A stretch of 64,000 nt of DNA, from the NCBI RefSeq assembly GCF_016903815.1, contig NZ_CP069973.1. One strand, 5' to 3'. Position 1 is the stretch's first letter, and the number at the start of each line of letters is the position of its first letter. This document shows positions 15,801 to 18,800 of this stretch, in pieces. Source of the DNA: Escherichia coli (GTDB lineage: Bacteria; Pseudomonadota; Gammaproteobacteria; Enterobacterales; Enterobacteriaceae). Made by a program: the position numbers.

Positions 15801-18800
15801 TTGCATCTTTATCACTCCTGGGTGTGAATTAACGTTTTAAAATCTTTTGCTGTCTGGTGTGCCGGATGTTTTGTCAGATGCGGCAAGAACGCCTTATCCG
15901 ACCTACGTCCGACAAACAAATTTTGTGCGAATTACCGCTAAAATCGCATTTTTCTGCCGACGCACACGTTTGCGTATCATATCAGAAAAAAGGGCCGGAT
16001 GACTCCAGCCCTGTATTTTTACTTGCTAAACGCAGCCTGGAAGACAGCTACCAGCGCGTCGTTCTGACTCTGAGTCAGAGTATGACCTTTCGGATCGATG
16101 AACTGTAGGCTGCTGCGGTTATCTAAATCGCCAACCTGCAGTTTATAGTCACCGGATGCCAGGCCTGGATCGCTCGCGCCCAGTTCCTGCCAGTCGCTGT
16201 CAGACAGCGGCTTGTAAGTTACGGCCATGTTACCCTGCGAACGGGTGCTGTCGGTCACTTTCATGCCCACTTTTTCCAGCGCCGCTGGCAGACGTTGCCA
16301 AACCACATTGAACGGCCCGCGTACGACCAGCATCGGTAAACCGGTGTCATCAGCTGCACTTTGTACGTCCATAGTGGTGGAGGCACGATTTTGCGCAGCG
16401 TTCGCGGCGTCAGTGGCAGATTTATCCAGACCGGCGGAAATAACGTTCATCATCTCCGTGCTGTAACGCTGCATGGAAGCCGCGTCTGCAACCGGTTTGC
16501 CCGCCTGTTCCAGGTTCAGCAGTTTAACCGTAACCGCCTGCTGATAACCCTGCGGCTTAACAGAGATTTGATAACGACCACGATACTGCTCGTCTTCGTC
16601 CAGACGGTTCCATTGTACCCAATCGGTGGTCAGTGTCTGACCAGCATCATCACGTTGGGTGATGGTGTAGTTTTTCGCCTGCAGCACGCTAACCACCTGC
16701 GGCCACAGAGTATTGCCACGACCATTTTCCACCAGCAATGAAGCGGTATCGCCCGTGAACTGGGTACGCGCGCCAGAAACCAGTGCCAGCGGCTGGGCTG
16801 GTGGACGAATGTCCAGCGCCTTACCGACAGCACCACTACCGTTGGTCACCGGGATTGCATAATCACCGGAGGTCACCGGCAAAATCATTCCAGCCGGGGC
16901 ATGAAGCTCCGCAAGCGGTGCCGCTTCCAGGTAGGCTTCATCACCACTGACCTGACGCTTATAGCGTGAGTCAGAACTACAGGCAGCGAGTAATAAAACA
17001 AGCGAAACACCCGCAACCTTTGCCAGGCGCGACTTTTGAACAGAGTAAGCCATCAAATCTCCCTAAACTTTACAGCAAACCGGCATGCTTAAGCGCCGCT
17101 CTGACCGTCTCACGACCACTGTCGGTGATAGGTGTCATTGGCAGGCGCAGCGTATCGGTCGCCACAAGACCCAGTTCCTTACATGCCCATTTCACCGGGA
17201 TTGGATTGGGTTCGACAAATAGTTTGTTGTGTAATGGCATCAGACGCTGATTAATAACGCGTGCCTCGGCAAAATGCCCTTCTGCTGCCAGTTTGCACAT
17301 CTGGGCCATATCATGCGCTGCGACGTTAGCCGTAACGGAAATAACCCCATGACCGCCTAATTGCATGAAGTCCAGCGCGCTCGCATCATCGCCGCTCAGC
17401 AGAACAAAATCATCTGAAACCAGCTCTTTGATCTGGTTTACACGCGTTAAGTTCCCTGTTGCCTCTTTGATTCCGATAATATTTTTTACTTTCGCCAGAC
17501 GGCCCACCGTTTCCGGGAGCAGATCGCAGCCAGTACGGGACGGCACATTATACAGAATTTGCGGCAGGTCAGTATGTTCAGCGATGGCTTTGAAATGCTG
17601 ATACAAACCTTCTTGCGACGGACGATTGTAGTAAGGGGTTACCGTCAGGCAGCCGACGATACCACTGTCATTGAAGCGCTGCGTCAGGCTAATGGCTTCC
17701 GCAGTAGCGTTAGCGCCGGTCCCGGCAATCACCGGAATGCGCCCGTCAGCCAGCTCCAGCGTCATCATCACCACATCAGCATGTTCGTCATGATTTAAGG
17801 TAGCGGACTCGCCAGTGGTGCCAACAGAAACGATCGCCGAAGTACCGCTGGCGACATGATAATCAATCAGTTTTTTCAAGCTAGCCCGACAGACATTACC
17901 TTTTTCATCCATCGGAGTAACAATCGCGACAATACTTCCCGTGAACATGGGCCATCCTCTGTGCAAACAAGTGTCTCAATGGTACGTTTGGTATGGCATT
18001 AAAAGCAAGCAGACAGAACCGTTCTGATTGTTGTATGCATGTTTTTTTTATGCTTTCCTTAAGAACAACTCACCCCTTAAAGGAATAACCAGTTTGACAC
18101 TGTCATCGCAACATTATCTGGTGATCACTGCGTTGGGTGCCGATCGCCCTGGAATTGTGAACACCATCACCCGTCATGTCAGTAGTTGCGGCTGTAATAT
18201 TGAAGACAGTCGCCTGGCGATGCTGGGAGAAGAGTTCACGTTTATCATGCTGCTTTCCGGTTCATGGAATGCCATTACTCTGATTGAATCAACGTTACCG
18301 TTGAAAGGTGCAGAACTGGATCTTTTAATCGTGATGAAGCGCACGACGGCGCGTCCGCGTCCGCCAATGCCAGCATCTGTCTGGGTTCAGGTCGATGTGG
18401 CAGACTCCCCGCATTTAATTGAACGCTTCACAGCACTTTTCGACGCGCATCATATGAACATTGCGGAGCTGGTGTCACGCACGCAACCTGCTGAAAATGA
18501 ACGGGCTGCGCAGTTGCATATTCAGATAACCGCCCACAGCCCCGCATCTGCGGACGCAGCAAATATTGAGCAAGCGTTCAAAGCCCTATGTACAGAACTC
18601 AATGCACAAGGCAGTATTAACGTCGTCAATTATTCCCAACATGATGAACAGGATGGAGTTAAGTAATGAATCCACTGAAAGCCGGTGATATCGCACCGAA
18701 ATTTAGCTTGCCGGATCAAGACGGAGAACAAGTTAATTTGACCGACTTCCAGGGACAGCGTGTTCTGGTTTATTTCTACCCGAAAGCCATGACCCCCGGC

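What the first reader, a model, noticed from the sequence alone, without database searches (positions are those of the whole stretch)
15860..15975. purC upstream region: degenerate PurR box next to a REP-like element
ACGCACACGTTTGCGT (2 mismatches to the PurR consensus) lies ~155 bp upstream of the purC start, and a REP-like palindrome lies between it and purC. A REP element inside what would be the leader, downstream of the operator, is unusual, so either the true promoter is closer to purC or the REP is transcribed as part of the 5' UTR.
Basis: partly seen in the sequence, partly recalled or inferred. Interest (0 to 1): 0.3.

Follow-up and report, generated by a model that had tools for sequence, protein, structure and literature searches.

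The report
Known purC operator with REP-bearing leader
This is the ordinary, already-mapped control region of the E. coli purine gene purC: a near-perfect PurR repressor site sitting on the transcription start, followed by a 163-base leader that carries a common repeat (REP) inserted only in the Escherichia lineage.

Summary
The interpretation needs correcting. purC lies on the minus strand (ATG at 15806). The 16-bp box at 15960-15975 is not degenerate. It has one mismatch to the palindrome ACGCAAACGTTTGCGT and is identical to the K-12 purC site bound by PurR in ChIP-chip. The same box is unchanged in 26 enterobacterial loci. Published K-12 TSS mapping puts the only detected purC start at the 7th base of the box, which is window 15969. 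An extended -10 (TGaTATGAT, 15976-15984) sits directly upstream. The operator therefore spans -6 to +10, and the REP (15873-15906; extended hairpin 15860-14) is transcribed within a 163-nt 5' UTR. No second PurR site and no downstream TSS were found. Citrobacter, Enterobacter and relatives have the same box only 65-68 nt from the ATG, so Escherichia gained about 102 nt carrying the REP. That block is present in 5425 of 5426 complete E. coli genomes. It diverges about as fast as synonymous sites, while the promoter/operator and the last 54 nt of the leader are almost invariant. The REP is most likely a tolerated passenger. Already known; low interest.

The parts
15986..16012 (-). Intrinsic terminator of bamC. 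The hairpin is at 16012..15991 and the T-run at 15991..15986. It lies just after the bamC stop codon (16021..16019).
   Evidence: The terminator scan found 9 pairs, 6 of them G-C, followed by TTTTTT. The bamC ORF ends at 16019. The hairpin is conserved in position in all enterobacterial loci inspected.
15976..15984 (-). purC promoter extended -10, TGaTATGAT. TG is at 15984-15983 and the hexamer TATGAT at 15981-15976. The only -35 candidate is weak: GAGTCA at 16005-16000, with an 18-bp spacer, inside the terminator hairpin.
   Evidence: The sequence was read directly. The K-12 TSS lies exactly 7 nt downstream of the hexamer. The motif is invariant in Escherichia, Citrobacter and Pseudocitrobacter. 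The -35 assignment is inference.
15960..15975 (-). PurR operator (PUR box) ACGCAAACGTGTGCGT, spanning -6 to +10 of the purC promoter.
   Evidence: It has 1 mismatch to the palindrome. It is identical to the K-12 ChIP-chip site ACGCACACGTTTGCGT at 2,595,794-809 (Cho 2011, PMC3159470). It is identical, or the mirror variant, in 26 enterobacterial loci.
15969..15969 (-). Inferred purC transcription start, the 7th base (A) of the box.
   Evidence: The K-12 TSS is at NC_000913.2 position 2,595,803 on the minus strand, with 24 reads and a 163-nt 5' UTR. The listed -50..+1 sequence ends ...CTGATATGATACGCAAA. It was transferred to the window by alignment.
15807..15969 (-). purC 5' UTR of 163 nt.
   Evidence: The leader folds at -46 kcal/mol with z = -2.0, dominated by the REP hairpin.
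15845..15946 (-). Escherichia-specific extra block of about 102 nt in the leader. Its boundaries are ambiguous within the flanking repeat.
   Evidence: The box-to-ATG distance is 168-169 nt in E. coli and E. albertii, against 65-68 nt in Citrobacter, Enterobacter, Leclercia, Pseudocitrobacter and Phytobacter.
15925..15946 (-). Upstream copy of an imperfect direct repeat, CGATTTTAGCGGTAATTCGCAC.
   Evidence: Both copies align to the single Citrobacter segment AATATTTATCGTTAATTCACAC. The repeat is not significant on its own: 27 of 300 shuffles reach its score.
15822..15844 (-). Downstream copy of the direct repeat, GATTTTAAAACGTTAATTCACAC. It is contiguous with the ancestral ribosome-binding region.
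15873..15906 (+). REP core, GTCAGATGCGGCAAGAACGCCTTATCCGACCTAC. It is written on the + strand, so it is antisense to purC and the mRNA carries its complement.
   Evidence: The hairpin is retained in all 11 Escherichia sequences examined.
15860..15914 (-). Extended leader hairpin: the REP stem plus an outer stem TGTCGGA/TCCGGCA.
   Evidence: Folding energy is -26.5 to -30 kcal/mol in the E. coli strains tested, -20.4 in L003 and -17.2 in E. albertii.
15807..15860 (-). Nearly invariant 3' end of the leader, including the Shine-Dalgarno sequence AGGAG (15819-15815).
   Evidence: There are 0 differences among the window, K-12, L003 and E. albertii. The segment is identical in 5216 of 5426 E. coli records.
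15093..15806 (-). purC coding sequence (237 aa, ATG at 15806).

Best explanation
This is the standard Escherichia purC control region, read on the minus strand.

- Promoter: after the bamC terminator comes a sigma-70 promoter with an extended -10 (TGaTATGAT) and a weak -35.
- Operator: transcription starts at window 15969, inside the 16-bp PurR operator, which therefore covers -6 to +10. When PurR carries its corepressor (hypoxanthine or guanine), it sits on the start site and blocks RNA polymerase binding or open-complex formation. This step follows from established PurR biology and is not tested here.
- Leader: derepressed transcription yields a 163-nt leader whose middle is a REP hairpin.
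- Origin of the REP: it arrived with about 102 nt of extra sequence in the Escherichia lineage, splitting an ancestral leader of about 61 nt.
- Role of the REP: it lies downstream of the operator/promoter and upstream of a conserved A/U-rich ribosome-binding segment, so it disturbs neither. It is most likely a tolerated, near-neutral passenger. At most it is a modest RNA-level modulator, acting as a decay barrier or a partial block for bamC read-through.
For: - Box identity and binding: the window box is identical to the K-12 PurR ChIP-chip site.
- Start site: TSS-seq gives a single purC start at K-12 2,595,803 with a 163-nt UTR. The listed -50..+1 sequence ends at the 7th base of the box, exactly 7 nt after TATGAT.
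- No alternative operator: no other PurR-like site lies within 400 nt.
- Insertion: the box sits 65-68 nt from the ATG in more than 15 non-Escherichia loci but 168-169 nt in E. coli and E. albertii. Sequence on both sides of the extra block aligns.
- REP family: this rests on consensus matches, multicopy hits and a sub-threshold naRNA4 match.
- Presence: the region is found in 5425 of 5426 E. coli genomes.
- Constraint pattern, E. coli versus E. albertii: 0-1 differences in the 59-nt terminator/promoter/operator segment; 0 of 54 in the 3' leader; 10-13 of 55 in the hairpin; 5 of 13 just after the box. purC fourfold-degenerate sites differ by 15-18%.
- Constraint pattern, population: 5216 records are identical for the 3' 54 nt, against 166 for the central 99 nt.
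Against: - The TSS comes from K-12, not from this strain, and from one data set with 24 reads. Other TSS data sets could not be read.
- The original primer-extension paper (Tiedeman 1990) is not held.
- A neutral rate of change in the REP does not exclude a structure-level function. The hairpin is retained in all 11 sequences, and no genome among 5425 has lost the block.
- 27 nt of the invariant 3' segment are Escherichia-specific, and that invariance is unexplained.
Confidence: 0.8

Rival explanations
1. A second, PurR-independent promoter downstream of the REP drives much of purC expression, so the REP is largely upstream of the functional mRNA. The candidate is CAGACA, 17 nt, GTTAAT, at about 15855-15827.
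For: - The candidate matches 4/6 in each hexamer with 17-bp spacing (sequence reading).
- It lies in the 54-nt segment that is invariant across Escherichia.
Against: - No TSS is listed there in the K-12 table, which reports starts down to 2 reads.
- The -10 candidate lacks the key A at position 2, and the promoter scan found nothing.
- The same downstream sequence, CGTTAATTCACACCCAGGAG, is the ancestral ribosome-binding region in Citrobacter, which explains its conservation.
- Strong PurR-dependent regulation of purC is reported (Cho 2011).
Confidence: 0.05
2. The REP hairpin is a functional RNA element of the purC leader or of the bamC 3' region. It could be a Rho-assisted or pausing attenuator, a barrier to 3'-5' exonucleases that stabilises bamC read-through transcripts or a leader fragment, or an RNase processing site that tunes purC output.
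For: - A hairpin of -17 to -30 kcal/mol is retained in all Escherichia sequences examined, despite 10-13 substitutions relative to E. albertii.
- The window's C-to-T change keeps a G-U pair in the mRNA sense.
- No E. coli genome has lost the block.
- REPs between tandem genes are reported to act as context-dependent terminators and decay blocks (bioRxiv 10.64898/2026.03.23.713779).
Against: - Substitution rate in the hairpin equals or exceeds the synonymous rate.
- The outer stem is lost in L003 and E. albertii.
- No U-run follows the hairpin in the sense direction.
- No purC entry was found in the held part of the 3'-end mapping supplement, which is weak evidence because the files may be truncated.
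- Relatives manage without the REP.
Confidence: 0.15

Closest known systems
E. coli K-12 purC control region (purCp with its PurR operator; He, Smith & Zalkin 1990; Tiedeman et al. 1990; Cho et al. 2011; Kim et al. 2012)
   Same: - The intergenic length is the same, 212 bp, and the sequence is 96.6% identical.
- The terminator stem, extended -10, operator, TSS context, 3' leader and ribosome-binding site are identical.
- The REP is at the same position.
   Different: There are nine substitutions. One is in the terminator loop, three lie in the 13 nt just after the box, one is just upstream of the hairpin and four are in the REP hairpin. The window carries a minority haplotype of the central block, identical in 166 of 5426 records.
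Other pur-regulon operators, for example purMN (TCGCAAACGTTTGCTT, also in this window at 39321-39336)
   Same: Both are 16-bp PUR boxes with a central CG, located at the promoter of a de novo purine gene and bound by PurR in ChIP-chip.
   Different: Cho 2011 states that PurR sites generally lie between -35 and -10. In Escherichia purC the box instead covers -6 to +10, because the -10 abuts its upstream edge.
REP/BIME elements between tandem genes in E. coli, for example REP325 in yjdM-yjdN and the malE-malF REPs
   Same: All are extragenic, transcribed, GC-rich imperfect palindromes ending in CTAC, present in many copies, and lying between two co-oriented genes.
   Different: - This is a single REP, not a BIME array.
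- It lies downstream of the upstream gene's intrinsic terminator and of the downstream gene's own promoter. For the main transcript it is therefore a 5' UTR element rather than a 3' UTR or intercistronic one.
purC leaders of Citrobacter, Enterobacter and Leclercia (ancestral-type arrangement)
   Same: They share the same bamC terminator, the same operator sequence and the same ribosome-binding region.
   Different: - They have no REP, and the box is 65-68 nt from the ATG.
- Enterobacter-type loci carry their best -10 (TGgCATAAT) just downstream of the box instead of upstream of it.

Membership tests
PurR (LacI/GalR family) operator, PUR box | A 16-bp imperfect palindrome close to ACGCAAACGTTTGCGT with a central CpG. 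| tested here: met
   ACGCAAACGTGTGCGT matches 15 of 16 positions and has the central CG. It is the only match in 64 kb with at most 1 mismatch.
PurR (LacI/GalR family) operator, PUR box | Located at, and overlapping, the promoter of a pur-regulon gene. | tested here: met
   The box spans -6 to +10 relative to the K-12 purC TSS, and the -10 abuts the box. The TSS was transferred from K-12 by alignment.
PurR (LacI/GalR family) operator, PUR box | Bound by PurR in vivo or in vitro, in a corepressor-dependent way. | not testable with these tools
   Literature only. The identical K-12 sequence is a ChIP-chip peak, with log2 enrichment of 2.08 with adenine and 1.52 without (Cho 2011).
PurR (LacI/GalR family) operator, PUR box | Conserved at orthologous promoters. 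| tested here: met
   26 of the 80 purC loci carry ACGCA[A/C]ACGT[G/T]TGCGT upstream of purC. These include Escherichia, Citrobacter, Enterobacter, Kluyvera and Cedecea.
REP (repetitive extragenic palindrome, Y-type PU) | An imperfect palindrome of about 35 nt matching the E. coli REP consensus, with the terminal CTAC (GTAG) tetranucleotide. | tested here: met
   The 3' half matches 15 of 16 positions. The 34-nt core is about 85% identical to the consensus GCCGGATGCGGCGTGAACGCCTTATCCGGCCTAC, which was recalled from memory. It ends in CTAC at 15903-15906 and folds into a hairpin.
REP (repetitive extragenic palindrome, Y-type PU) | Many copies per genome, all extragenic. | tested here: met
   The central block matches a median of 9-10 places per E. 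coli genome at E<=1e-3. Other copies occur in the window at 11184-11249 and 36224-36239. This copy lies in the bamC-purC spacer.
REP (repetitive extragenic palindrome, Y-type PU) | Mobilised or recognised by a RAYT (TnpA-REP) transposase. | not tested
   The lineage-specific presence is compatible with insertion. The flanking 22-bp repeat is not significant, and no RAYT analysis was done.
Extended -10 sigma-70 promoter | A TGn motif immediately upstream of a TATAAT-like hexamer, with the TSS 6-8 nt downstream, which tolerates a poor -35. | tested here: met
   TGaTATGAT matches 5 of 6 hexamer positions, and the TSS lies 7 nt downstream. The best -35 is only 3 of 6, which is why the generic scan missed the promoter.
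Rfam naRNA4 (RF02564) | A score at or above the gathering threshold of 59.5 bits. | tested here: not met
   The score is 28.2 bits with E = 0.005. This reflects shared REP sequence only, not membership.

The most novel reading that the evidence does not exclude
The Escherichia-specific leader block may not be inert. The REP hairpin, together with the 27 Escherichia-specific but invariant nucleotides downstream of it (about 15834-15860), could form a lineage-specific post-transcriptional control module for purC. Possible modes are attenuation, processing, or an sRNA or protein binding site, layered on top of PurR repression.
Probability: 0.1. Interest if true: 0.4.

Novelty: already known. Interest (0 to 1): 0.12.

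Why it matters
It matters little beyond correct annotation. The operator, the start site and the REP are all features of the K-12 reference and behave as expected. The analysis adds two modest points:
- It is a clean example of a REP-bearing insertion tolerated inside a regulated 5' UTR, because it landed between the operator/promoter and the ribosome-binding segment.
- Enterobacterial purC promoters appear to keep the operator fixed while the -10 element sits on different sides of it in different genera.

Tried and rejected
- Generic promoter scan of 15700-16150: it found no sites. This is uninformative, because the real promoter has a weak -35 and relies on an extended -10.
- Candidate -10 elements downstream of the box (CAGAAA, AAAAAT): rejected. 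They vary among E. coli strains and E. albertii, and the mapped TSS lies upstream of them.
- Second PurR site: none found. The next-best match in the 400 nt upstream has 8 mismatches.
- Literature and TSS sources that gave nothing:
  - Tiedeman 1990 and Thomason 2015 are not held.
  - Mendoza-Vargas 2009 has no true purC mention.
  - The Romero 2014 supplement has no hit.
  - The Cappable-seq table is truncated at about 260 kb.
  - SMRT-Cappable-seq and the Adams 2021 3'-end tables have no purC entry in the held text.
  - The K. pneumoniae purC TSS could not be retrieved.
- Target-site-duplication reading of the 22-bp flanking direct repeat: not supported statistically, since 27 of 300 shuffles reach its score. 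It is kept only as a descriptive feature.
- Known RNA family in the leader: only a sub-threshold REP-derived hit.
- K-12 RefSeq copy: it lists no repeat or regulatory features for this spacer, so the annotation could not confirm the REP name.

Full report
**Anatomy**

The genes here lie on the minus strand in the order dapA, bamC, purC, ypfJ, tmcA, as in E. coli K-12. The purC ATG is at 15806 and the bamC stop codon at 16021-16019, which leaves a 212-bp spacer.

Read in the purC sense, the spacer contains:
- an intrinsic terminator hairpin at 16012-15991 followed by a run of six T;
- the motif CTGATATGAT;
- the 16-mer ACGCAAACGTGTGCGT at 15975-15960;
- about 45 nt of variable sequence;
- a GC-rich palindrome;
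- an A/U-rich stretch, the Shine-Dalgarno sequence AGGAG at 15819-15815, and the ATG.

**Checking the observation**

It has one mismatch, not two, to the palindrome ACGCAAACGTTTGCGT. No other match with at most one mismatch exists in the 64-kb window. Its proximal edge is 154 nt from the ATG.

The palindrome is a REP:
- Its 3' half matches 15 of 16 positions of GCCTTATCCGGCCTAC. Four such matches occur in the window, against 0.28 expected.
- The central block hits a median of 9-10 places per E. coli genome.
- Rfam returns only a sub-threshold match to the REP325-derived naRNA4, at 28.2 bits against a threshold of 59.5.

The label 'degenerate' is not.

**Identity with K-12 and published binding**

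The spacer has the same length as in MG1655 and is 96.6% identical. The sequences are identical from the terminator stem through the box, and again over the last 54 nt.

Cho et al. 2011 (PMC3159470, Table 1) list ACGCACACGTTTGCGT at 2,595,794-2,595,809 as the purC PurR motif. It lies under a ChIP-chip peak with log2 enrichment of 2.08 with adenine and 1.52 without, among the highest values in the table. The region is present in 5425 of 5426 complete E. coli genomes.

**Where transcription starts**

The generic promoter scan found nothing. Table S1 of Kim et al. 2012 (PMC3415461) lists one TSS for purC. It is at NC_000913.2 position 2,595,803 on the minus strand, with 24 reads and a 5' UTR of 163 nt. 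The listed -50..+1 sequence is AAAATACAGGGCTGGAATCATCCGGCCCTTTTTTCTGATATGATACGCAAA (column headers checked). That table includes starts with as few as 2 reads, and none is listed closer to purC.

The start is the 7th base of the box, which corresponds to window 15969. It lies exactly 7 nt downstream of TATGAT, which is preceded by TGa. This makes an extended -10 promoter with only a 3-of-6 -35 (GAGTCA) inside the terminator hairpin. The weak -35 explains why the scan missed it.

The operator therefore spans -6 to +10. PurR bound there would occlude the start site. That mechanism is inferred from established PurR biology and is not tested here. No better PurR site exists, as the next-best match in the 400 nt upstream has 8 mismatches.

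**Origin of the REP**

A scan of species-representative genomes with PurC returned 80 loci. The same box occurs in 26 of them.
- In Citrobacter, Enterobacter, Leclercia, Pseudocitrobacter, Phytobacter and others, the box starts only 65-68 nt from the ATG.
- In E. coli and E. albertii it starts 168-169 nt from the ATG.

The alignment shows conserved sequence on both sides of an Escherichia-only block of about 102 nt that contains the REP. Citrobacter has the E. coli-type promoter, so its leader would be about 61 nt.

The block is flanked by an imperfect 22-23-bp direct repeat at 15925-15946 and 15822-15844. Both copies align to the single Citrobacter segment. On its own the repeat is not significant, as 27 of 300 shuffles reach its score, so I do not call it a target-site duplication.

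Kluyvera and Enterobacter sp. BIGb0383 have unrelated extra sequence at the same place. This part of the leader evidently tolerates insertions.

**Constraint**

The neutral yardstick is purC fourfold-degenerate sites. They differ by 5.5% among the three E. coli sequences and by 15-18% between E. coli and E. albertii. Differences between E. coli and E. albertii by segment are as follows.

| Segment | Length | Differences vs E. albertii |
|---|---|---|
| Terminator + promoter + operator | 59 nt | 0-1 |
| Just after the box | 13 nt | 3-5 |
| Hairpin | 55 nt | 10-13 |
| Last part of the leader | 54 nt | 0 |

Population counts across 5426 E. coli records agree:
- the 3' 54 nt are identical in 5216 records;
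- the promoter/operator segment differs by at most 1-2 bases, mainly a common G/A polymorphism in the terminator loop;
- the central 99 nt are identical in only 166 records, and 90-95% identical in 4820.

The REP block therefore drifts at about the neutral rate. A hairpin still persists in all 11 Escherichia sequences folded. Its energy is -26.5 to -30 kcal/mol in typical E. coli, -20.4 in L003 and -17.2 in E. albertii. No U-run follows it in the sense direction, so it is not an intrinsic terminator.

**Interpretation**

The best reading is an ordinary PurR-controlled promoter whose leader picked up a REP in the Escherichia ancestor. The REP landed between two constrained modules and has been tolerated.

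A regulatory RNA role for the REP is not excluded. It could act as a decay barrier, as a backup stop for bamC read-through, or as a Rho-assisted attenuator, as proposed for tandem-gene REPs in bioRxiv 10.64898/2026.03.23.713779. It has no direct support here. That preprint reports that about 40% of E. coli REPs lie between tandem genes, so this location is only mildly atypical. The specific feature is that this REP sits downstream of the second gene's own promoter.

A weak promoter-like pair, CAGACA-17-GTTAAT, lies in the invariant 3' segment but has no TSS support.

**Verdict**

Everything essential is already known from K-12, and interest is low.

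Noticed in passing
window 39321-39336: A second PUR box, TCGCAAACGTTTGCTT, with 2 mismatches to the palindrome. It is identical to the purMN operator listed by Cho 2011, so the window also contains the purMN control region.
   Followed up: partly
L082 (E. coli ETEC1701) 1898-2356; break point corresponds to window ~15985/15986: About 20 E. coli genomes have the bamC terminator and the purC -10/operator split. In ETEC1701 an IS200C transposase gene sits between them, immediately upstream of the extended -10. This could alter purC promoter strength.
   Followed up: partly
L004, L005, L012, L015 (Enterobacter/Leclercia), L014, L016, L017, L021, L025, L026, compared with L002, L003, L007-L011, L013, L024, L034; about 20 nt either side of the box: The operator is fixed, but the best -10 differs by genus. 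TGATATGAT or TATAGT abuts the box upstream in Escherichia, Citrobacter, Pseudocitrobacter, Kluyvera and Pluralibacter. A 5-of-6 hexamer (CATAAT, TAGAAT, TAAAAT or GATAAT) lies 2-5 nt downstream of the box in Enterobacter, Leclercia, Phytobacter and Pseudescherichia. This suggests the promoter has moved around a conserved operator. It is inference only, with no TSS data.
   Followed up: partly
window 15834-15860: About 27 nt of the leader (ACACCAGACAGCAAAAGATTTTAAAAC) are absent from non-Escherichia relatives, yet they are invariant between E. coli and E. albertii and in 96% of E. coli genomes. The adjacent REP drifts at the neutral rate. CACACCAGACAG resembles the pre-SD CACACCCAGGAG, which hints at an old duplication. 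The reason for the invariance is unexplained.
   Followed up: partly
L018 (Kluyvera) and L021 (Enterobacter sp. BIGb0383), 60-130 nt upstream of purC: Independent, unrelated extra sequences of about 63 and 33 nt occupy the same position in the purC leader as the Escherichia REP block. This indicates a permissive or insertion-prone spot.
   Followed up: no
window 11184-11249 and 36224-36239: Other REP copies in the window. One is an inverted pair (BIME-like) at 11184-11249, and one is a single copy near 36224. A weak PUR-box-like 16-mer with 3 mismatches at 36437-36452 is probably chance.
   Followed up: no
window 15860-15880: The 5' arm of the REP looks internally duplicated: GCCGGATG-TTTT-GTCAGATG. 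Removing 12 nt would restore a near-canonical REP, TGCCGGATGCGGC.... In the RNA, the extra copy forms the outer stem of the extended hairpin.
   Followed up: no
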